DNA of 64,000 bases from an uncultured Pseudomonadota bacterium (lineage in GTDB: Bacteria > Pseudomonadota > Gammaproteobacteria > DASZBR01). The position numbers and the translations under genes were made by a program. This document shows, piece by piece, positions 52,522 to 60,234 of the stretch. The notes under the pieces are model-generated. The model made no database searches. It was not told where the DNA came from and saw nothing but the letters and a program-made list of their open reading frames with translations. How positions within the stretch are numbered: the stretch's first letter is position 1; each line of letters opens with the position of its first letter. The DNA lies in contig CAVQJZ010000003.1 of NCBI GenBank assembly GCA_963712965.1, positions 66,878 through 130,877 on the forward strand. The letters are read 5' to 3'.

Positions 52522-52596
52522 CCGGCAATGATAACAAACAGTTGCTTATTTAGTAATCATCCGCTACTTTTCTGCGCTCTAGCAAAAGGATACCCC

Positions 52597-54228
52597 ATGG
52601 CTCAATACGTTTTTACCATGAATGGCGTTGGCAAAGTCGTTCACCCGAATCGTTTTATCTTAAAAGATATTTATTTGTCATTTTTCCCTGGCGCCAAAAT
52701 TGGCGTGCTGGGTTTAAACGGTTCTGGAAAATCCACCCTACTTCGTATCATGGCAGGCCTCGATAAAGACTATATAGGTGAAGCGCGCCCACAACCCAAT
52801 CTGAAAATTGGTTATTTGCCTCAAGAACCACACTTAGACCCTACGAAAGATGTCCGCGGCAATATTGAAGAAGCGGTTAAAGAAACCAAAGCATTGCTAG
52901 ATCGCTTTAATGAAATCAGCATGAAATTTGCCGAGCCCATGTCTGATACGGAAATGGATAAATTACTCAACGAACAAAGCGAATTACAAAATAAAATTGA
53001 TGCAGCCGGTGCGTGGGAATTAGATCGCCAATTAGATATTGCTGCTCATGCGCTACATTTGCCACCTTGGGATGCCGATATTACAAAATTATCCGGTGGT
53101 GAAAAACGCCGCGTCGCCTTGTGTAAATTGGTGCTTTCTAATCCTGATATGATTTTACTTGATGAACCAACGAACCATTTAGATGCAGATAGCGTGGCGT
53201 GGTTAGAAAAGTTTTTGAAAAATTTTGCTGGCACCGTGGTAGCTGTCACTCATGATCGTTACTTTTTAGATAATGTCGCAGGTTGGATTCTAGAATTGGA
53301 TCGTGGACAAGGTATTCCTTATGAAGGCAATTATTCTTCGTGGTTAGAACAAAAAGAAAAACGTTTAGAGATTGAAGAAAAACAAGAAACAGCGCGACAA
53401 AAAACCATTAAACATGAATTGGAATGGATTCGCGCCAATCCCAAAGGGCGACACGCAAAAAGCAAAGCGCGTATTGCGCAATTTGATGAACTCATGTCGC
53501 AAGAATTTCAAAAACGTGCTGAAACGCAGGAAATTTATATTCCGCCGGGCCCTCGTTTGGGTGATGTTGTCATTGAAGCCAAAGGGTTAAAGAAAAGTTT
53601 TGGCGAACGCACATTATTTGACAATCTAGATTTCTTTTTACCACCCGGTGGCATTGTTGGTGTGATCGGTCCTAATGGTGCGGGAAAAACCACACTCTTT
53701 CGCATGCTTGCGAATCAAGAAAAACCTGACAGCGGTGAAATTCGTTTTGGTGATACGGTACAACTTGCTTATGTCGATCAAAGTCGCGATAGCTTAAATG
53801 GTGATAAAACCGTGTGGGATGAAATTTCCAACGGCCAAGAAATTATGATGGTCGGTAGTTATCAAACGCAATCACGTGGTTATGTGAGTCGTTTTAATTT
53901 CAAAGGCGCTGATCAACAAAAATTAGTGAAAAATTTATCGGGTGGTGAACGCAATCGTGTTCATCTCGCCAAACTTTTAAAAAGTGGCGGCAATGTTTTA
54001 TTGCTCGATGAACCTACCAATGATTTAGACGTTGAAACATTGCGCGCGCTTGAAGAAGCGTTATTGTCTTTCCCTGGTTGCGCGGTAGTGATTTCACATG
54101 ATCGCTGGTTTTTAGATCGTATCGCGACACACATGCTTGCGTTTGAAGACGATAAAGTCGTGTGGTTTGAAGGCAATTACGCGGATTATGCGGCGGATCA
54201 TGAGAGACGCACGGGTAAGACTGTTTAA
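52597..54228 (+). CDS. ettA: Energy-dependent translational throttle protein EttA (ABC-F ATPase)
   Basis: [15 protein letters not shown]...[26 protein letters not shown] is nearly collinear with my recollection of E. coli EttA. The start is set at 52597. Confidence 0.95.
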
Positions 54229-54233
54229 ACAAT

Positions 54234-54324
54234 GTCATCCCGGCCAAGCGAGTGAAACGAGTGCGAGCCGGGATCTAGCAATTTAATCCTACTTGTCACC
54301 CCGCATTTATTGCGGGGTCTGGTA
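54234..54324. repeat. Family F hairpin (gtcatcccggc...gccgggatc) followed by an inverted half copy of family A
   Basis: gtcatcccggccaagcgagtgaaacgagtgcgagccgggatc, then ttgtcaccccgcatttattgcggggtctggta. Confidence 0.7.
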
Positions 54325-54669
54325 GATGTTAAAGCACCAGCAAATGCACTCTCGCATAGCTTCATCCAAGCTCACACAAACCCCATGCGCACGGGAATTC
54401 AAACGCTTGTAACAACAAGAAAAAGTTATTTCTTTAACGTGTCCTTAAGAAAACCTTAAGATTTCTCTGTTAGTCTTTAAAAATCAAAGGGTTTTATGTA
54501 CAATTTTTCGTATAATGGTGTAAGCTTAAGTGTGCGAGAGTCGTCAGCATTTTTCCCAATATAAAATTCTACAAACAAAACAACAGCACTGTGAATGGCA
54601 GATTGATGAGCATGCTGTATTGTGTTTTTTATAAGAAGACTGCGAGAGTTAAATTGAGGCTTAGAGAGA

Positions 54670-55866
54670 ATGTTAACTAAAGTAATATTTCCAAACTTGA
54701 AAAAAGGAGACAAACCTAGATGTCTTCTCGTAATCAGTCTTGGTCAAGATCTTCAATCGGGTGAAAAACTTAAAGTAACTATTGAAGGCATAAATAAACA
54801 ATTTTCAGAATGCACTGTTGTTATCGCTGATTCCCTGCAAAAACATAATCAAAGAATTTTAGGCCTAGATGAAAATGCAGCCACAGAAGCTGCTTTAGCA
54901 AGCGGCAAAAAATGGCTTGAAGAAAATAAAATCACTTTAGATGCTTTACAAATACCACATGCTATTCATCATTGGACTGAATACACATCAAGCGCAGACT
55001 TCCAAAATGCATTACGTAGCGTAAAAGATAGATATAACACGGATGTCGATTATAAAGCTGATCTGGATGACGCAATCGCCAGTTTTTATGCCAACTTCTC
55101 CTCCGCTCACAAAGACAAAAAAAGACTCCCAAGAAGAGAAGCAGAGGAATTTATACGAGAATATATAGAAGAAGAATATGCGGTAATGAAAGTATGGGAA
55201 AAAACTCTTGGCGACGTAAGACTCACATATCCAATAAGCCACAGCAAGATTGCCGCGTTAGTCTACGATGCTTTTAAAGCTCATCTTGCAGTAAAAAAAT
55301 CTAGTTTAATTTTTCAAGATATGCAATTTACAGGTGAAAAGAAAAATGGAGCTGCCAAAAATGGCGCAGCTAACGGAAAATCTATTCCTAGTGCAAAAAA
55401 AGAAAGCTCTGACGAACACTCATCTCGATCACGAAGCAATTCCAGTTCTTCAGGTGAAGATAACGACGAAGAGAAAGCTCTACGCAAAATAGCAAAAACC
55501 ACTTTCGAAATAATGAATGGTTTACCAAAAGAGCAGCAGCTTGACGATACTTTTACGATTGCCGCTAAGTCTGCGGCCGCTGCCATAAACGCAATCAAAA
55601 CAACAAATGCGGTGTCGATATCCAGACTTGGAATTCTCAAAGTATCGACAACACCACGAACCAGCCCTCCTCTGTCGCCACATTCTTCCCCTACAGAAGA
55701 AATACCTCCTCGTGTATCGCCGCCAAAACGTTCTTCAGCTCCTAGCGATGATAGAATCGAAGAAGGCGCGCAAGAAACAACAAGCAACGAACGGCCTAAA
55801 AGCTTAACTATTGCTGAATTGGAAGATTTTGCAAAGCATCATAATAACGGATTTACTAAAAAGTAA
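54670..55866 (+). CDS. Cyclodipeptide synthase (CDPS)-like protein, XYP-type, with a ~175-aa Ser/Pro-rich low-complexity C-terminal extension
   Basis: V-I-S23-L-G-Q26, Y165-x3-E169 and Y187-P188 correspond to AlbC G35-I-S37-A-G-N40, Y178/E182 and Y202/H203. Ser-to-Tyr spacing is 142 aa versus 141. Residues 221-398 are low complexity. Confidence 0.7.
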   Translation: MLTKVIFPNLKKGDKPRCLLVISLGQDLQSGEKLKVTIEGINKQFSECTVVIADSLQKHNQRILGLDENAATEAALASGKKWLEENKITLDALQIPHAIHHWTEYTSSADFQNALRSVKDRYNTDVDYKADLDDAIASFYANFSSAHKDKKRLPRREAEEFIREYIEEEYAVMKVWEKTLGDVRLTYPISHSKIAALVYDAFKAHLAVKKSSLIFQDMQFTGEKKNGAAKNGAANGKSIPSAKKESSDEHSSRSRSNSSSSGEDNDEEKALRKIAKTTFEIMNGLPKEQQLDDTFTIAAKSAAAAINAIKTTNAVSISRLGILKVSTTPRTSPPLSPHSSPTEEIPPRVSPPKRSSAPSDDRIEEGAQETTSNERPKSLTIAELEDFAKHHNNGFTKK

Positions 55867-55870
55867 TTTT

Positions 55871-56245
55871 CTAATTTCGAGTTAATTGGTTCAAATATTC
55901 TTCGACAGTTTCTTTAGCAAGTGGTTTCGTAATGTATCCATTCATTCCTGCTTCAGAAGCTTGTTTTTTATATTCATCACTGTTGTGAGCTGTTAAGCCA
56001 ACAATGCATATATGAACCTTTTCTTCCAATGCGCGAATTATTTTTGTCACAGCAAAGCCATTTGTATCAGGCAATCCAATATCCATGAAAATAATATCAT
56101 AGTGATTTGTCTTAAAAAGATTTAAAGCGGATTCACCATTACTTGCTGTATCTACATCACAACCTACTTCGATCAAAACCATTGACGCGATTTTTTGTGC
56201 GATCATATTATCTTCCACAAGCAATGCTCTAATTTTCTTATTCAT
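55871..56245 (-). CDS. Stand-alone response-regulator receiver (CheY-like) protein
   Basis: LLVEDN, FMDIGLPD (Asp55), GLTAH, ITKPL. There is no output domain. Confidence 0.9.
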   Translation of the reverse strand: MNKKIRALLVEDNMIAQKIASMVLIEVGCDVDTASNGESALNLFKTNHYDIIFMDIGLPDTNGFAVTKIIRALEEKVHICIVGLTAHNSDEYKKQASEAGMNGYITKPLAKETVEEYLNQLTRN

Positions 56246-56251
56246 AAAAAT

Positions 56252-57814
56252 TTACTCCTCCTTACTCGTCGTCTCATTTGATAATGGTAATTTAAACGGC
56301 AAAATGCAAACAAAAGCACTTCCTTTGCCAACCTCGCTATTCACTTCAATCTCGCCTTCCATTTCTTCGACGAATTGTTTAACTACTCGCAATCCCAAAC
56401 CTAAACCTTTGTGAACTCCTTGGTTAGCCGGTGTTCCTCGCGTAAATTTTTCATAAATATACTCTAATTTTTCTTTTGGAATACCGCTTCCTGTGTCTTT
56501 AACAACTATTTTAATGAGTACACTTTTACCCTTTTTTTGTATCTCATATAACTCAACTTTGATAGACCCTGCTTGAGTAAACTTGATTGCGTTGCTTAGC
56601 AAATTAATAAGTATACGCTGCAGACGATAGTCATCACCCAAAAGAATAGCAGATATACTCTCATCATACGCGGCAATTAATTCTAAGTTTTTGTTTTTGG
56701 CCGCAGGCATTTCCATTGCAACAACACTATCAACCAATTTCTTCAGTTCAAACTTTTTAACAATAACAGGTCTATTACCATGCTCGATATTAGAAAAATC
56801 AAGCACGCCATTGCAAAAGTCTAATAATTCCTTTGAAGCCATCGCCAAATAATTAAGTAACTCTTTTTTTTCTGAATCATTTTCTTTTTCAAATAGATTA
56901 TTGGCCAAATAATAAATGCCGGCGCATGGTGTTCTAATGTCATGTTCCATATTATGGATAAAATCCATTTTTACTTGGTTAGCGATTTTCAGTTGCTCCT
57001 CGTATTTTTTTCTTTCACTAATATCAATAGATATACCGAGCAGACCATTTACATGTCCTTGCTTATCCTTCAACGGAACTTTTCTCGTTAGATATACGGC
57101 GTGATTTCCTTTGGAATCAAAAGCATCTTCTTCTATAGAATGCTCAAAACCTAAAGCCATTATTCTTTCATCTTCGTTGGAAACCACATGAGCGACATCC
57201 CCATCATTTTTTCCAATTATTTCTTCAAGAGTTTTTCCGATAACATCCTGCCTTGAGCTGGCATTAATCAATTTTAATATATTGTAATTACACCCAAGAT
57301 AAACACCTGATCTGTTTTTCCAATAAACATTCCCTGGCATTAACGCAATAATTTCATGAAGATTTTCCAATTCATCTGACAACTTTAGACGTTCACTTCT
57401 TATCGATTTCAATTCCTGCTCGTAAAATTTTATTTTTTGCTGAGCTTGTTCTTGATCAATCTCTTCTTGGCAAATAGTGATTAGACCAGAAGAACTCGTT
57501 TGAATATCATTAAATGGAATTCGAGTAATCGTTGCATTAGAAACAATACCGTCATCACTTGAGCGACTTTCTCTCTCGGTTAATCTTTGTTGAGTTGATA
57601 TGGCTTCTTCATCAAACTTAGTAACATGATCAGCGATTGATTTTTTGACCAAATCGTAGATAGTCTTTCCAACGATTTCTTGGGGTGAGGATAAATTATA
57701 AGATTTTGCAGCACTATGACTACAGAATAGATAACGACCATCTTTATCTTTGACAGCAACATTCAGTGGCAAAACAGAAACCAGCTCTTTCAAAAAAACT
57801 AAATTCATATCCAT
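56252..57814 (-). CDS. Soluble PAS-PAS sensor histidine kinase (HisKA + HATPase_c, no TM, no receiver)
   Basis: Two PAS modules (second: LMPGNVYWKNRSGVYLGCN), H-box FIHNMEHDIRTP, N-box LLSNAIKF, G-boxes DTGSGI and GLGLGL. Confidence 0.9.
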   Translation of the reverse strand: MDMNLVFLKELVSVLPLNVAVKDKDGRYLFCSHSAAKSYNLSSPQEIVGKTIYDLVKKSIADHVTKFDEEAISTQQRLTERESRSSDDGIVSNATITRIPFNDIQTSSSGLITICQEEIDQEQAQQKIKFYEQELKSIRSERLKLSDELENLHEIIALMPGNVYWKNRSGVYLGCNYNILKLINASSRQDVIGKTLEEIIGKNDGDVAHVVSNEDERIMALGFEHSIEEDAFDSKGNHAVYLTRKVPLKDKQGHVNGLLGISIDISERKKYEEQLKIANQVKMDFIHNMEHDIRTPCAGIYYLANNLFEKENDSEKKELLNYLAMASKELLDFCNGVLDFSNIEHGNRPVIVKKFELKKLVDSVVAMEMPAAKNKNLELIAAYDESISAILLGDDYRLQRILINLLSNAIKFTQAGSIKVELYEIQKKGKSVLIKIVVKDTGSGIPKEKLEYIYEKFTRGTPANQGVHKGLGLGLRVVKQFVEEMEGEIEVNSEVGKGSAFVCILPFKLPLSNETTSKEE

Positions 57815-57937: not shown

Positions 57938-58216
57938 ATGACCGATTTTACTAAAGAAGCCCTTAAAATGTTCGCTCAAGTCATCCCAGAAGAGCTCGCT
58001 GCTCTGGAAAGTGCTCATCGAGCTCAAGACTGGAAAGTGATTTATGAATACATTCATAAAATGAAAAGCTCGGCGGTTTATTGCAAAGCCTTCAAATTGC
58101 GCGATGCATGCGCCGATTTAGAACAATATTTGAGATCATCGGAAAATATTGAACATCGTGAACAGCTTTATCAGGTAGTTTTAGACGAAATTGATGTGGT
58201 GAGAAAAGATCTCTGA
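57938..58216 (+). CDS. Stand-alone Hpt (histidine phosphotransfer) domain protein
   Basis: YIH40KMKSSAVYCKA fits the Hpt HxxKG/S motif. The 92-aa size is consistent with a four-helix bundle. Confidence 0.75.
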   Translation: MTDFTKEALKMFAQVIPEELAALESAHRAQDWKVIYEYIHKMKSSAVYCKAFKLRDACADLEQYLRSSENIEHREQLYQVVLDEIDVVRKDL

Positions 58217-58275: not shown

Positions 58276-59544
58276 TCAAACCAAATTCTCACTAAAAATC
58301 TTTGCGATTAATTCTGATTTAGACACACATCCTAACTTATCTTTTGCGTTATCAACATAAAACTCCACGGTACGTGGTGATAAACCCATTTTTTTTGCTA
58401 CTAACTTAAGCGTCATACCACGAACTAAATAATGAATACATTCTGACTCACGCTTAGAAAGCCCTAAATACTTGTGCGCCTTATGCAACTCATTTATTTT
58501 CTCTTTTGGTAGTGTAATTGGCATATCTTCAATGGCAATTTCTTGAGCTTCAGCATTTAGATTAAAATGAGCAAAACCCTCGACATCTATCGCCATGTTT
58601 TCTAAATCTTCGCTGATTTTCTTAAGCTCAACAGCTGATTTTTTGGGTGATTTCAATCCTTTGAGCGCCAAACGAAAATCCTTCGCCAAATTAGACAGAA
58701 ATTCCGTTTTTGCACGATTGGCATTCTCCGCAATTTCTTTTGCCGCAAGAAGCTGCTCTTCCATTTTCTTTCTTTCAGTGATATCTATCGAAACACCCAA
58801 TAACCCAACTACTTTCCCCTGATCATCATGTAATGGAAGTTTCTTTGTGAAAAACAATGCCTTCTCATTTTTAGAATTAATACCCGGCTCTTCATAAATT
58901 AGTTCTTTGTCAGACGCCATAATTTTTTCATCATCAGCAGTCACTTGATCTGCAAGTTTTTTATTAAGGATGGCGTGTATTTTTTTGCCAATTAAATCTT
59001 TTGGTGCTTTAAGTCCAAGATTGTCTACATTATTTTGATTGCTACCAAGATACACACCTTCTCGATTTTTCCAGTACACATTCCCAGGCATCAAAACAAT
59101 TAATTCCTCTAGGTAATGCATCCTGTTAATAAACTCCGCTTTGGATTTATTTGATTCTTCTAATGCTTTTTCCATTTTTTTACGTTCGGTGATATCAAAA
59201 GAAACGCCTAACAAACCAACAACGCTATTATTTTCATTAACTAAAGGGATTTTTTTAGTTAAAAAAATCATGGGTTCTACACCAGAGGGCGCGTAGATTT
59301 CTTCAAGCATAACTTCTTGATTCGTTGACATGACTTTCTCATCAACCACATAAATTTTATCTGCATCATTCTTATCAACTAAATCGTACGTCTTTTTCCC
59401 TATAAACTCTCTCGAGGATTTTAATCCGAAAGTTTTCACAAGATTCTCATTACACCCCAAATACACCCCGTCTCTATTTTTCCAATAGACGTTACCTGGC
59501 ATAACAGCAATTAATTGTTCAAGAAGAACATTATTGAGATCCAT
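58276..59544 (-). CDS. PAS-PAS-LuxR/GerE HTH transcriptional regulator with a His-less HisKA-like remnant (no receiver domain)
   Basis: Two PAS modules paralogous to those of the kinase (MPGNVYWKNRDGVYLGCN; MPGNVYWKNREGVYLGSN). NRAKTEFLSNLAKDFRLAL sits in the H-box position. The C-terminal LSKRESECIHYLVRGMTLKLVAKKMGLSPRTVEFYVDNAKDKLG is a LuxR-type HTH. Confidence 0.85.
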   Translation of the reverse strand: MDLNNVLLEQLIAVMPGNVYWKNRDGVYLGCNENLVKTFGLKSSREFIGKKTYDLVDKNDADKIYVVDEKVMSTNQEVMLEEIYAPSGVEPMIFLTKKIPLVNENNSVVGLLGVSFDITERKKMEKALEESNKSKAEFINRMHYLEELIVLMPGNVYWKNREGVYLGSNQNNVDNLGLKAPKDLIGKKIHAILNKKLADQVTADDEKIMASDKELIYEEPGINSKNEKALFFTKKLPLHDDQGKVVGLLGVSIDITERKKMEEQLLAAKEIAENANRAKTEFLSNLAKDFRLALKGLKSPKKSAVELKKISEDLENMAIDVEGFAHFNLNAEAQEIAIEDMPITLPKEKINELHKAHKYLGLSKRESECIHYLVRGMTLKLVAKKMGLSPRTVEFYVDNAKDKLGCVSKSELIAKIFSENLV

Positions 59545-59702: not shown

Positions 59703-60137
59703 TTAATTTTTGAGCAAAATTTTGCTTAATTGCTTACGGTTTTTGATTACATCTGCCAAAGTGTATTGCGCTAAAACTTTGATAAAACTATTTTTAGCTT
59801 CATCTAAAACATGCTTTAGTCGACATACGGGTGAAATCACACACTTCCCGTTTGCTTGATCAAAACATTCAACGATAAAAAAATTAGGCTCTATTTTTTG
59901 AACCAGGTCACCAAGGTTAATATGTTCTGGCTTTGCATTAAGCTGCAAGCCACCCTTTTTACCTCGAATCGTTTTAAGCACACCAAGCTTACTCAAGCGA
60001 TGGATAACTTTCATCAAGTGATTTTTAGAAATTTTGTAGCTGTCGGCAACTTCAGAGATGGTGCAGACCTCATCGTTACGCAGCGCAATATAAATCAGTG
60101 CGCGTAATGAATAATCTGTAAATTGTGTGAGCTGCAT
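59703..60137 (-). CDS. Rrf2 family transcriptional regulator (NsrR-like, three-Cys Fe-S cluster ligands)
   Basis: MQLTQFTDYSLRALIYIA is an Rrf2 N-terminus and wHTH. Cys91-x7-Cys99-x5-Cys105 is present. The start is set at 60137. Confidence 0.85.
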   Translation of the reverse strand: MQLTQFTDYSLRALIYIALRNDEVCTISEVADSYKISKNHLMKVIHRLSKLGVLKTIRGKKGGLQLNAKPEHINLGDLVQKIEPNFFIVECFDQANGKCVISPVCRLKHVLDEAKNSFIKVLAQYTLADVIKNRKQLSKILLKN

Positions 60138-60183
60138 AATGAAAACCTCATGGAAAGTATTGCATAGTGAAGCCACAATGTTT

Positions 60184-60206
60184 AACATTCATTTTAAATA
60201 CATGTT
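60184..60206. promoter_or_regulatory. NsrR-box-like 11-1-11 inverted repeat AACATTCATTT-T-AAATACATGTT
   Basis: The half-sites match each other at 9 of 11 positions and resemble my recollection of the gammaproteobacterial NsrR consensus (AAnATGnATTT-n-AAATnCATnTT). It lies between the divergent Rrf2 and globin genes. Confidence 0.5.
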
Positions 60207-60234
60207 ATGGCATTCTTACTATTAGGAGCAATTG

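What the first reader, a model, noticed from the sequence alone, without database searches (positions are those of the whole stretch)
54670..55866. XYP-type cyclodipeptide synthase-like enzyme with a long Ser/Pro-rich disordered tail and no tailoring genes
Residues 1-220 carry the diagnostic CDPS residues at the right spacing. CLLV-I-S23-L-G-Q26 corresponds to AlbC G35-I-S37-A-G-N40. Y165-IEE-E169 corresponds to Y178/E182. Y187-P188 corresponds to Y202/H203, and Tyr-Pro with a non-Asn at position 40 defines the XYP subfamily. Ser-to-Tyr spacing is 142 aa versus 141 in AlbC. A gap-free stretch (IHHWTEYTSSADFQNALRSVKDRYNTDVDYKADLDD) also parallels my recollection of YvmC ([36 protein letters not shown]). 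To my recollection, XYP CDPSs have been characterised from Legionellales (Rickettsiella, Fluoribacter). Residues 221-398 (SSRSRSNSSSSGEDNDEE; TPRTSPPLSPHSSPTEEIPPRVSPPKRSSAP; C-terminal IAELEDF) have no counterpart in canonical 230-290 aa CDPSs. They look like a eukaryote-style disordered region with proline-directed phosphosites and possibly a secretion signal. No oxidase, P450 or methyltransferase is adjacent.
Basis: partly seen in the sequence, partly recalled or inferred. Interest (0 to 1): 0.8.

Follow-up and report, generated by a model that had tools for sequence, protein, structure and literature searches.

The report
Tailed cyclodipeptide synthase wired to sensor kinase
This gene encodes a real but very divergent cyclodipeptide synthase with a long disordered tail, and in nearly every relative that could be checked the enzyme sits beside, or is fused to, a PAS-type sensor kinase relay, which suggests its small cyclic dipeptide is a signal and not an antibiotic precursor.

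Summary
ORF 54670-55866 (+) encodes 398 aa. Residues 1-222 form an XYP-subfamily cyclodipeptide synthase (CDPS) domain: phmmer gives E 9e-20 to the Fluoribacter dumoffii CDPS, the AlphaFold2 domain has pLDDT >90, and Foldseek TM is 0.84. All catalytic and signature residues are present (S23, Y165, E169, Y187, Q26, P188). Residues 223-398 are a Ser/Pro/Thr-rich, mostly disordered tail with one helical hairpin. The tail has no detectable homologue, but codon statistics show it is genuinely coding.

The protein is an orphan: the nearest of 1.84 billion cluster representatives (standing for about 15 billion proteins) is 35% identical.

The gene lies tail-to-tail with a receiver, PAS-PAS histidine kinase, Hpt and PAS-LuxR cluster. 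Nine of ten distinct relatives with readable flanks also have a PAS_4 kinase or receiver gene next door or one gene away. About 10% of the top 150 relatives are CDPS fusions to PAS, kinase, receiver, LuxR or Hpt domains.

I read the enzyme as the small-molecule arm of a cytoplasmic phosphorelay in a Legionella-like bacterium.

The main rival is a Dot/Icm-translocated effector. It is supported by a PmrA-like promoter shared with an F-box gene in the window and by an E-block-like C-terminus. The product and its sensing are inferred, not shown.

The parts
54670..55866 (+). Whole gene: 398-aa XYP-type cyclodipeptide synthase with a C-terminal tail
   Evidence: ORF. It is an orphan: the only protein with E<=1e-30 in the exhaustive search is itself, and the nearest representative is 35% identical. 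Its 90% cluster has a single member.
54670..55335 (+). CDPS catalytic domain, residues 1-222. Catalytic residues S23, Y165, E169, Y187. XYP signature Q26 and P188. Predicted pockets P1 LVVAWVML and P2 ASFNIHS.
   Evidence: PDB phmmer E 9.1e-20 to 5ocd. AlphaFold2 pLDDT >90. Foldseek 5ocd TM 0.84, AlbC 0.69. Residue mapping. The pocket mapping reproduces the published cGG motifs.
55336..55866 (+). Tail, residues 223-398. S+T+P+N+Q make up 39% of residues 232-398. Predicted disordered at 223-264 and 324-380.
   Evidence: No detectable homologue. In-frame GC3 0.30 against 0.49/0.51 out of frame.
55462..55638 (+). Predicted helical hairpin inside the tail (helices 265-283 and 287-323), moderate confidence
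   Evidence: AlphaFold2 DSSP, pLDDT 63-73. By my reading of the sequences, relatives' tails also contain an amphipathic helix-like stretch, but none shows phmmer similarity to another.
55765..55863 (+). Last 33 residues (GAQETTSNERPKSLTIAELEDFAKHHNNGFTKK). D/E at -13, -14 and -16 and Phe at -4 give an E-block-like, Dot/Icm-signal-like end. A short helix covers residues 381-390.
   Evidence: Only 1 of 62 window ORFs meets this simple heuristic. Helix. This is a heuristic, not a trained classifier.
54433..54476 (+). Candidate PmrA-type promoter: TTTAAC-N5-CTTAAG-N5-CTTAAG, then 11 nt, then TAGTCT as the -10 element, 194 nt before the ATG
   Evidence: The same architecture lies upstream of the F-box gene and of relative P0049 in L087/L088. 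Published PmrA consensus cTTAA-N2-TT-N2-cTTAA (bioRxiv 10.1101/679134).
55871..56245 (-). Single-domain response regulator (D55 present), convergent with the CDPS gene; the two stop codons are 4 nt apart
   Evidence: Pfam Response_reg 6.8e-26. 42% identical to the receiver beside relative P0004. The same convergent receiver lies beside P0049.
56252..57814 (-). Soluble PAS-PAS-HisKA-HATPase histidine kinase (H291 in HDIRTP)
   Evidence: No transmembrane segment. Collinear and 38-42% identical to the kinases beside P0004 and P0098.
57938..58216 (+). Stand-alone Hpt phosphotransfer protein (H41)
   Evidence: Pfam Hpt 1.4e-12. Relative P0141 carries, directly after its CDPS domain, a tail with an Hpt-type HxxxG motif (my reading of the sequence, not a profile hit).
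58276..59544 (-). PAS-PAS-GerE (LuxR-type helix-turn-helix) regulator
   Evidence: Relative P0138's C-terminal extension reads as a PAS module followed by a LuxR-type helix-turn-helix (my reading of the sequence, not a profile hit). The PAS motif YWKN..GVYLGCN occurs in the 64-kb window only in this gene and the kinase.
42017..42049 (+). Second copy of the PmrA-like promoter (CTTAATAAAACCTTAAG, 11 nt, TACTAT), upstream of the F-box/HEAT gene 42091-44346

Best explanation
The gene encodes a catalytically competent but strongly diverged XYP-subfamily cyclodipeptide synthase from a Legionella-like (Legionellales) bacterium.

Mechanism by homology (inferred): it takes two aminoacyl-tRNAs in turn, forms an acyl-enzyme on S23, and with Y165, E169 and Y187 releases an untailored 2,5-diketopiperazine. 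The pocket residues suggest a small first side chain such as Ala; confidence in that is low.

It is not a stand-alone secondary-metabolite gene. It is the small-molecule arm of the adjacent soluble phosphorelay: receiver, PAS-PAS histidine kinase, Hpt and PAS-LuxR.

Working model (inferred): the cyclodipeptide, whose production rate depends on charged-tRNA supply, is read inside the cell by the PAS domains of the partner kinase or the LuxR-type regulator.

The 176-residue tail is a fast-evolving, lineage-specific extension. It consists of disordered Ser/Pro/Thr-rich segments around one helical hairpin. It most likely tethers or targets the enzyme. Its role is not settled.
For: Shown: it is a CDPS.
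- phmmer E 9.1e-20 to 5ocd; family profile 5.8e-93.
- AlphaFold2 domain pLDDT >90; Foldseek hits to CDPS structures at TM 0.82-0.85, then AlbC, Rv2275 and YvmC.
- S23, Q57, N60, F139, Y165 and E169 align with N. brasiliensis S34, Q69, N72, F149, Y172 and E176.
- Y187-P188 sit in conserved family columns (Y187 invariant in A1 and A2, P188 invariant in A2).

Shown: it is coupled to a phosphorelay.
- In the window the receiver and PAS kinase lie 4 nt downstream, convergent, followed by Hpt and PAS-LuxR.
- The PAS motif occurs nowhere else in the 64 kb.
- Relatives only about 24-37% identical keep a PAS_4 kinase or receiver neighbour, immediately adjacent or one gene away, despite different orientation and different flanking genes:
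  - P0004: receiver plus kinase, convergent.
  - P0098: kinase downstream, same direction.
  - P0039: divergent hybrid kinase.
  - P0155: divergent kinase plus receiver-Hpt, with a 65-aa ORF between.
  - P0151: methyltransferase-PAS-kinase-receiver-Hpt protein one gene away.
  - P0049: receiver; P0054: kinase C-terminus; P0002: PAS_4.
- That is 9 of 10 distinct loci including the window. The one exception is P0157.
- The partner kinases are collinear and 38-42% identical.
- Domain fusions confirmed with Pfam: ten proteins are CDPS+PAS_4+HATPase kinases (nine with a HisKA hit, five with a receiver). P0009 and P0123 carry the PAS motif in C-terminal extensions of 506 and 360 aa. The extensions of P0069 (PAS), P0138 (PAS plus LuxR-type HTH) and P0141 (Hpt-type motif) were read from sequence.
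- The fused CDPS domains keep the S-Y-E-Y tetrad.
- All five cluster proteins lack transmembrane segments, and the phospho-acceptor residues are present.

Background: diketopiperazines acting as bacterial signals, including through LuxR-type receptors, is established (PMC13220807).
Against: - No product, ligand binding or regulation has been measured. The direction of the coupling is open: the enzyme could feed the kinase, be controlled by it, or merely be co-regulated with it.
- The query departs from the family consensus at 13 of 43 conserved columns. These include four conserved arginines (R58K, R85E, R101H, R142N). The last corresponds to N. brasiliensis R152, which contacts the A76 phosphate. 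Activity or tRNA preference could therefore be altered.
- The gene is convergent with the kinase operon, not co-transcribed with it.
- A PmrA-like promoter shared with an F-box gene and an E-block-like C-terminus fit a secreted effector.
- One short relative has no kinase neighbour.
- The source organism was not identified.
Confidence: 0.55

Rival explanations
1. It is a Dot/Icm (type IVB) translocated effector. The tail carries the C-terminal translocation signal and host-facing linear motifs. The CDPS domain would use host aminoacyl-tRNAs to make a cyclodipeptide in the host cytosol. This could coexist with the kinase link if the bacterium senses the product.
For: - A tandem cTTAA-N6-cTTAA box sits 11 nt upstream of a TAnTnT -10 element, 194 nt before the ATG. 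The same architecture precedes the eukaryote-like F-box/HEAT gene at 42091 and relative P0049. The box is expected 0.22 times per window, and 2 sites are seen.
- It resembles the published PmrA consensus.
- The C-terminus has 3 acidic residues at -17 to -10 and Phe at -4. It is the only one of 62 window ORFs to do so.
- The protein is an orphan with a disordered polar tail, as is typical of Legionella effectors from general knowledge.
- The window also encodes a TPR plus eukaryote-like kinase protein.
- Relatives' contigs carry IcmW and Legionella_OMP.
- S/T-P motifs are mildly enriched across 17 tails: 33 against 20.7 expected, P 0.001.
Against: - No dot/icm gene lies in the window, and no trained signal predictor was available.
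- By inspection of the relatives' C-terminal sequences, the E-block pattern does not appear to be shared; it was not scored.
- The central TT of the PmrA consensus is absent here.
- The box is found upstream of only 2 of about 10 relatives' genes.
- The same CDPS domain is repeatedly fused to cytoplasmic kinase and DNA-binding modules, which are not expected to be translocated.
- The search of held papers found none that links CDPSs to Dot/Icm translocation.
Confidence: 0.25
2. It is an ordinary stand-alone CDPS making a cyclodipeptide natural product. The tail is a neutral, drifting extension and the kinase neighbourhood is incidental.
For: - Many XYP CDPSs lack tailoring genes, and several from Legionellaceae were active alone in E. 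coli: cGG, cGE and cAA.
- The tails show no sequence conservation.
Against: - Adjacency to a PAS_4 kinase or receiver holds in 9 of 10 distinct loci with rearranged gene order, and there are repeated domain fusions.
- A tail is kept at 67-335 aa in many lineages, and in the query it has coding-type GC3.
Confidence: 0.1
3. It is a catalytically weakened CDPS-fold protein. It acts mainly as an aminoacyl-tRNA-binding sensor or scaffold for the kinase, not as a producer of a diffusible product.
For: - Four conserved arginines are lost, including the equivalent of the A76-phosphate contact, and the query ranks fourth most divergent of 50 family members.
- In the fusions the CDPS domain occupies the N-terminal position where kinases usually carry input domains.
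- Degenerate CDPS domains do exist: the first domains of P0003 and P0009.
Against: - The full S-Y-E-Y-P set and Q57, N60 and F139 are intact in the query and in nearly all fusions.
- R142N also occurs in fusion P0006, whose other residues are cGG-like.
Confidence: 0.1

Closest known systems
Fdum-CDPS (CDPS 33, WP_010654411; PDB 5OCD) from Fluoribacter dumoffii, an XYP cyclo(Gly-Gly) synthase
   Same: Best sequence and fold match: E 9.1e-20 and TM 0.84. Same catalytic tetrad and XYP signature. Likely the same bacterial order. A cGG-type relative (P0155) also sits next to a PAS_4 kinase.
   Different: Only about 25-30% identical. Pocket motifs differ: LVVAWVML/ASFNIHS here against LPLDWVME/NDFRSRN. 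No long tail: the 5OCD sequence is 266 residues. The query has lost several conserved arginines.
[quoted passage not shown] 2018, PMC5816076)
   Same: XYP CDPSs from Legionellaceae that carry an unexplained C-terminal extension and have no obvious tailoring enzymes.
   Different: The P1 motif of that group is LLLAWA(V/I)I with P2 T(D/N)FRG... The query's motif appears in no published group. I could not obtain those sequences, so whether the extensions are related is untested. Tails within the query's own neighbourhood are not homologous to one another.
Nbra-CDPS (N. brasiliensis; PDB 5MLQ, 9IAJ-9IAM), an XYP cyclo(Ala-Glu) synthase with RNA-microhelix complexes
   Same: E 2.8e-14 and TM 0.83. 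S34, Q69, N72, F149, Y172 and E176 are all conserved in the query. Ala at P1 position 67, as in the cAX groups.
   Different: R152 and R156, which bind the A76 phosphate, correspond to N142 and A146 in the query. No tail and no kinase context is known for it.
Legionella Lqs / Vibrio Cqs autoinducer modules, in which synthase, sensor kinase and response regulator genes are clustered (from general knowledge; CqsA/CAI-1 is cited in PMC13220807)
   Same: Same logic: a small-molecule synthase gene clustered with a sensor histidine kinase and a receiver protein.
   Different: The synthase is unrelated (a PLP-dependent acyltransferase against a tRNA-dependent CDPS). LqsS and CqsS are membrane receptors, whereas this kinase is soluble with PAS domains. 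Synthase-kinase fusions are not a feature of Lqs or Cqs.
PmrA-regulated Dot/Icm effectors of Legionella and Coxiella
   Same: Tandem cTTAA repeats replacing the -35 element, an orphan protein, a polar and acidic C-terminus, and eukaryote-like neighbours in the window.
   Different: Translocation is untested. The central TT of the consensus is absent. The conserved pairing with a cytoplasmic phosphorelay is not a known effector trait.

Membership tests
Cyclodipeptide synthase (CDPS), XYP subfamily | Significant sequence similarity to characterised CDPSs | tested here: met
   phmmer E 9.1e-20 (5ocd), 2.8e-14 (5mlq), 6.7e-5 (5mlp). A family profile gives 5.8e-93.
Cyclodipeptide synthase (CDPS), XYP subfamily | Passes the curated profile thresholds (Pfam PF16715, TIGR04539) | tested here: not met
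   17.4 bits against a cut-off of 27, and 36.3 against 45. Only 17 of 50 clear XYP relatives reach E<=0.001 against PF16715, so sub-threshold scores are usual for this clade and are not evidence against membership.
Cyclodipeptide synthase (CDPS), XYP subfamily | Class-I aaRS-like Rossmann (HUP) fold of CDPSs | tested here: met
   AlphaFold2 residues 1-222 at pLDDT >90. Foldseek: ranks 1-44 are CDPS structures (TM 0.63-0.85), followed by TyrRS. The structure is predicted, not solved.
Cyclodipeptide synthase (CDPS), XYP subfamily | Catalytic residues equivalent to AlbC S37, Y178, E182, Y202 | tested here: met
   S23, Y165 and E169 align with N. brasiliensis S34, Y172 and E176. Y187 is invariant in the family alignments. 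123 domains in the set show S-Y-E-Y-P.
Cyclodipeptide synthase (CDPS), XYP subfamily | Non-Asn at AlbC position 40 and Pro at position 203 (the X..YP signature) | tested here: met
   Q26 (three residues after S23) and P188 (after Y187). Definition from PMC13062777.
Cyclodipeptide synthase (CDPS), XYP subfamily | Makes a cyclodipeptide from two aminoacyl-tRNAs | not testable with these tools
   Needs expression and LC-MS. Pocket motifs LVVAWVML/ASFNIHS match no published specificity group.
Legionellaceae cAA-group CDPSs with a C-terminal domain | P1/P2 pocket motifs of the group (LLLAWA(V/I)I and T(D/N)FRG..) | tested here: not met
   The query has LVVAWVML and ASFNIHS. Group motifs are from Gondry supplementary file 7.
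Legionellaceae cAA-group CDPSs with a C-terminal domain | Homologous C-terminal domain | not tested
No tail homologue was seen in the listed output of two large protein searches.
Dot/Icm type IVB effector | Host genome encodes a Dot/Icm system | tested here: inconclusive
   No dot/icm genes among the window ORFs that were scanned; roughly half of the 62 ORFs, mainly in 1-40 kb, were not scanned. A relative's contig has IcmW. The source genome was not found among GTDB representatives.
Dot/Icm type IVB effector | C-terminal translocation signal (E-block, polar residues, hydrophobic residue at -3/-4) | tested here: inconclusive
   A simple heuristic is met by this ORF alone among 62. It is not a validated classifier, and by inspection of their C-termini relatives do not appear to share the pattern.
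Dot/Icm type IVB effector | PmrA/CpxR-type regulatory element | tested here: inconclusive
   cTTAA-N6-cTTAA plus a -10 element at 11 nt, shared with the F-box gene and P0049. The central TT of the consensus is missing. Binding is untested.
Dot/Icm type IVB effector | Dot/Icm-dependent translocation into host cells | not testable with these tools
   Needs a reporter-fusion assay.
Autoinducer synthase plus sensor kinase module (Lqs/Cqs-like logic) | Synthase gene clustered with a sensor kinase and receiver, conserved across relatives | tested here: met
   The window plus 8 of 9 other distinct loci, and also domain fusions.
Autoinducer synthase plus sensor kinase module (Lqs/Cqs-like logic) | Membrane-bound receptor kinase sensing an extracellular signal | tested here: not met
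   The kinase has no transmembrane segment: maximum Kyte-Doolittle(19) value 1.56 at its N-terminus. Any sensing would be intracellular.
Autoinducer synthase plus sensor kinase module (Lqs/Cqs-like logic) | The product binds the sensor and changes kinase output | not testable with these tools
   Needs biochemistry or genetics.

The most novel reading that the evidence does not exclude
In Legionella-like bacteria, XYP cyclodipeptide synthases form the input of a previously undescribed signalling circuit fed by charged tRNA. The enzyme converts aminoacyl-tRNA availability into a simple diketopiperazine messenger (cyclo(Gly-Gly)-like in the fused forms). Soluble PAS_4 histidine kinases or PAS-LuxR regulators read that messenger to control differentiation or virulence. 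Tailed stand-alone forms such as this one may additionally be delivered to the host. The bacterium would then read a product made from host tRNAs.
Probability: 0.2. Interest if true: 0.85.

Novelty: new variant of a known kind. Interest (0 to 1): 0.62.

Why it matters
CDPSs are usually treated as entry enzymes of diketopiperazine natural-product pathways. [quoted passage not shown]

The conserved pairing, and the repeated fusion, of this CDPS clade with PAS-type phosphorelay proteins gives a concrete and testable answer: the cyclodipeptide is a signal tied to two-component regulation. If that holds, it would be the first genetically defined CDPS-based signalling module that I could find. It would also link tRNA charging to kinase signalling in a group of pathogens whose life cycle is driven by amino-acid supply.

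The alternative, a secreted CDPS acting on host tRNAs, would also be new.

The experiments are simple: LC-MS of the product, PAS-binding assays, phosphotransfer assays and a translocation reporter.

Tried and rejected
- Word-index protein search with the full protein returned only the query itself. The 8000 candidates were probably dominated by low-complexity tail words. A search with a 9-sequence profile returned only 11 proteins.
- The search for related loci with the family alignments failed because no stretch was conserved enough.
- With the single protein, the search for related loci found no relative in the GTDB species representatives.
It returned only non-Legionella gammaproteobacteria at 74% identity or less. 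The organism therefore stayed unidentified and the syntenic locus in sister species could not be examined.
- Tails of 17 relatives compared all against all with phmmer gave no hit at E<10. I therefore dropped the idea of a shared C-terminal domain at sequence level.
- tblastn against plasmids found only distant hits in a sponge symbiont and a Vibrio, and no Legionella plasmid CDPS.
- Rfam scans of the window at gathering thresholds (only a tRNA) and of 54200-54700 at E<=1 found no RNA family in the upstream region. Folding of the putative 5' leader was unremarkable, z +1.1.
- Proline-directed phosphosite enrichment in the query tail is not significant on its own.
- The minus-strand ORF 55314-55787 (157 aa), which overlaps the tail, is treated as spurious because the plus frame has the genome-typical low GC3.
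- The cTTAA box in L084 lies beside icmW and not the CDPS gene, and it lacks the 11-nt spacing to a -10 element. It was not counted.
- Literature searches found no paper on CDPS-kinase fusions or on CDPSs as Dot/Icm substrates. The held library is incomplete, so this does not show that such work does not exist.
Full report
OBSERVATION

The quoted residues and spacings are all correct.

Curated profiles only graze it. Pfam CDPS scores 17.4 bits against a cut-off of 27, and TIGR04539 scores 36.3 against 45. This reflects the clade and not the protein. Only 17 of 50 unmistakable relatives reach E<=0.001 against the Pfam model. Direct comparison with solved structures is decisive:
- E 9.1e-20 to the Fluoribacter dumoffii CDPS (5OCD).
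- E 2.8e-14 to the Nocardia brasiliensis enzyme (5MLQ).
- E 6.7e-5 to the Rickettsiella grylli enzyme (5MLP) (organism names).
- A profile built from 50 relatives hits 5OCD at 5.8e-93.

An AlphaFold2 model built on a 67-sequence alignment gives pLDDT >90 for residues 1-222. Foldseek against the PDB returns CDPS structures at ranks 1-44: XYP enzymes at TM 0.82-0.85, then AlbC at 0.69, Rv2275 and YvmC. Tyrosyl-tRNA synthetases follow.

CATALYTIC RESIDUES

I mapped residues through the phmmer alignment to N. brasiliensis CDPS and the residue roles given in the 2026 NAR paper (PMC13062777).
- S23 corresponds to S34 (AlbC S37).
- Y165 corresponds to Y172 (AlbC Y178).
- E169 corresponds to E176 (AlbC E182).
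- Q57, N60 and F139 correspond to Q69, N72 and F149, which hold the aminoacyl-A76.
- Y187-P188 sit in conserved family columns (Y187 invariant in A1 and A2, P188 invariant in A2).
- Q26 fills the 'X' position.

The XYP assignment is therefore right.

I mapped the pocket positions (AlbC 33, 35, 65, 67, 119, 185, 186, 200 and 152, 155, 156, 159, 204, 206, 207) onto the alignment. The mapping reproduced the published cGG motifs LPLDWVME/NDFRSRN exactly for the cGG-type hits. The query reads LVVAWVML/ASFNIHS, which is in none of the published specificity groups. Ala at position 67 resembles the Ala-accepting groups, so a small first substrate is a weak guess.

The query is unusually diverged. It departs from consensus at 13 of 43 conserved columns. 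These include four arginines (R58K, R85E, R101H, R142N). The last is the equivalent of an A76-phosphate contact in the N. brasiliensis enzyme.

THE TAIL

- Residues 223-264 and 324-380 are predicted disordered.
- Residues 265-323 form two helices at moderate confidence.
- Residues 381-390 form a short helix.

The exhaustive phmmer search of 1.84 billion representatives found 747 relatives. Matches lie mostly within residues 1-240 (a few alignments extend to 253-351), and no listed hit has its best stretch in the tail. Only the best stretch of the top 150 hits is shown, so a tail-only match cannot be excluded. Nothing except the query itself scored below E 1e-30, and the nearest relative is 35% identical. 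The 90% cluster has one member.

The tail is nonetheless coding. Third-position GC is 0.30 in frame against 0.49 and 0.51 in the other frames, like the neighbouring genes.

Tails are not unique to this protein:
- Sixteen relatives carry extensions of 67-335 aa beyond the CDPS domain with no PAS, LuxR or Hpt sequence. Most are rich in S/T/P/N/Q and, by my reading, have an embedded amphipathic helix-like stretch.
- None of the 17 tails compared resembles another by phmmer.
- Gondry et al. [quoted passage not shown]
- S/T-P motifs are not enriched beyond composition in the query (5 against 3.1). They are mildly enriched over the 17 tails pooled (33 against 20.7, P 0.001).

CONTEXT: THE MAIN NEW POINT

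Upstream lie EttA, Hsp33 and other housekeeping genes. Four nucleotides after the CDPS stop codon, and convergent with it, lie four signalling genes:
- a single-domain response regulator;
- a PAS-PAS-HisKA-HATPase kinase;
- an Hpt protein;
- a PAS-PAS-GerE regulator.

All of these are soluble and keep their phospho-acceptor residues. The characteristic PAS motif (YWKN..GVYLGCN) occurs in the 64-kb window only in these genes.

I fetched the contigs of relatives that are only about 24-37% identical. The same partnership appears in different orientations and amid different flanking genes:
- P0004: convergent receiver plus PAS-PAS kinase, with IcmW nearby.
- P0098: kinase directly downstream, in the same direction.
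- P0039: divergent hybrid kinase.
- P0155, a short cGG-type enzyme: divergent PAS kinase plus receiver-Hpt, with a 65-aa ORF between.
- P0151: one gene away from a methyltransferase-PAS-kinase-receiver-Hpt protein.
- Short contigs: P0049 has a receiver next door, P0054 a kinase C-terminus and P0002 a PAS_4 N-terminus.
- Exception: P0157 has no such neighbour.

That is nine of ten distinct loci, counting the window. The partner kinases are collinear and 38-42% identical, and the receivers are 42% identical.

Independently, about a tenth of the 150 best hits are fusions of a CDPS domain to phosphorelay modules:
- Ten proteins confirmed with Pfam as CDPS+PAS_4+HATPase kinases, nine with a HisKA hit and five with a receiver; some have a further PAS N-terminal to the CDPS domain.
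- P0009 and P0123, with the PAS motif in C-terminal extensions of 506 and 360 aa.
- P0069 (PAS alone), P0138 (PAS plus LuxR-type helix-turn-helix) and P0141 (Hpt-type motif), read from their sequences.

The fused domains keep the S-Y-E-Y tetrad, and P0006 has cGG-like pocket residues. Three CDPS census papers do not mention such fusions. A full-text search for the two terms together turned up nothing relevant.

INTERPRETATION

Conserved neighbourhood plus repeated fusion is the classic signature of a functional link. I therefore read the enzyme as the small-molecule arm of this cytoplasmic phosphorelay. Diketopiperazines acting as bacterial signals, including through LuxR-type receptors, is established. 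A synthase, kinase and receiver cluster is also the layout of the Legionella Lqs system (general knowledge).

Which way information flows is inferred, not shown. I favour product sensing by the PAS domains because the kinase is soluble and because the CDPS sits in the input position in the fusions.

RIVAL: A SECRETED EFFECTOR

A tandem CTTAAG-N5-CTTAAG box, followed after 11 nt by TAGTCT, lies 194 nt upstream of the ATG. The same architecture precedes the F-box/HEAT gene at 42091-44346 (11 nt, then TACTAT) and relative P0049. The core box is expected 0.22 times per window, and two sites are seen. They are the only two matches in the window to the box-plus-minus-10 pattern, and both are correctly oriented in intergenic DNA.

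The box resembles the PmrA consensus cTTAA-N2-TT-N2-cTTAA, although the central TT is missing here. The last 17 residues carry an E-block-like ELED and a Phe at -4. This ORF alone among the 62 in the window meets that heuristic. The window also encodes a TPR plus eukaryote-like kinase.

Against this rival:
- The box is upstream of only 2 of about 10 relatives' genes.
- By inspection of their C-terminal sequences, the relatives' tails do not appear to share the E-block; this was not scored.
- Fusions to kinase and DNA-binding modules argue for a cytoplasmic role for the domain.

I give this rival 0.25. It need not exclude the kinase link.

ORGANISM

The organism was not identified. GC content of about 39% is compatible with a Legionella-like genome (general knowledge). 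Several observations point to Legionellales:
- The best structural match is from Fluoribacter.
- The window encodes eukaryote-like F-box and kinase proteins.
- The promoter boxes are PmrA-like.
- Relatives' contigs carry IcmW and Legionella_OMP.

This remains an inference, because both genome-collection scans were uninformative.

VERDICT

The finding gains interest from the conserved CDPS-phosphorelay pairing, which I could not find described. As an enzyme it is a new, orphan member of a known family. As a system it is a new variant of a known kind. Interest 0.62.

Noticed in passing
Relatives P0006, P0009, P0020, P0028, P0029, P0030, P0042, P0073, P0121, P0123, P0134, P0149, P0069, P0138, P0141; locus L083:2145-4328: CDPS domains fused to PAS_4-HisKA-HATPase (with or without a receiver). 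Read from sequence only: PAS alone (P0069), PAS plus a LuxR-type HTH (P0138), an Hpt-type motif (P0141). The catalytic tetrad is retained. I could not find this architecture described in the held literature.
   Followed up: partly
P0003 (460 aa) and P0009 (1069 aa): Proteins with two CDPS domains. The first has lost the catalytic Ser/Tyr set and the second keeps it, which suggests a pseudo-enzyme plus enzyme tandem.
   Followed up: partly
window 42091-44346 (+), with box at 42017-42049: A 751-aa protein with an N-terminal F-box (26.6 bits, above the Pfam cut-off) and HEAT repeats. It is a eukaryote-like effector candidate, preceded by the same PmrA-like promoter as the CDPS gene.
   Followed up: partly
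window 31984-34572 (-): An 862-aa protein with about ten TPR repeats and a C-terminal eukaryote-type Tyr/Ser-Thr kinase domain (PK_Tyr_Ser-Thr, 207 bits). This is another eukaryote-like effector candidate.
   Followed up: no
L083:1862-2158 and L093:8868-9146: A small PQ-loop (SemiSWEET-like) gene of about 92-98 aa lies directly next to the CDPS gene in two unrelated loci. It could be a transporter for the product.
   Followed up: no
L093:9179-12247 (-) and L083:4422-5228 (+): A 1022-aa SAM-methyltransferase-PAS-PAS-HisKA-HATPase-receiver-Hpt protein sits one gene from a CDPS. A weak 2OG-Fe(II) oxygenase-like gene follows a CDPS-kinase fusion. Tailoring-type enzymes therefore also appear in, or fused to, these kinase modules.
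   Followed up: no
window 55863-55874; L084:4919-4930; L087:1636-1642: The tail-to-tail junction between the CDPS gene and the receiver gene is extremely tight in three diverged lineages: a 4-nt gap, a 12-nt overlap and a 5-nt gap. No terminator was predicted between the genes in the window, which suggests convergent transcriptional overlap.
   Followed up: no
window 54229-54330: Two strong GC-rich hairpins lie just after the EttA stop codon (-39.1 kcal/mol, z -4.1). Neither is followed by a T-run, and there is no Rfam match.
   Followed up: partly
L089:4319-5848: A 509-aa Fic-domain protein lies immediately upstream of the tailed CDPS relative P0098.
   Followed up: no
window 59703-61567: An Rrf2-family regulator is divergent from a bacterial globin and a 2Fe-2S/FAD/NAD reductase. 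This looks like a nitrosative-stress type cluster and is probably unrelated to the CDPS.
   Followed up: no
window 52528-54228: The mechanical EttA ORF starts 22 codons upstream of the conserved MAQYVFTM. The true start is probably at 52594.
   Followed up: no
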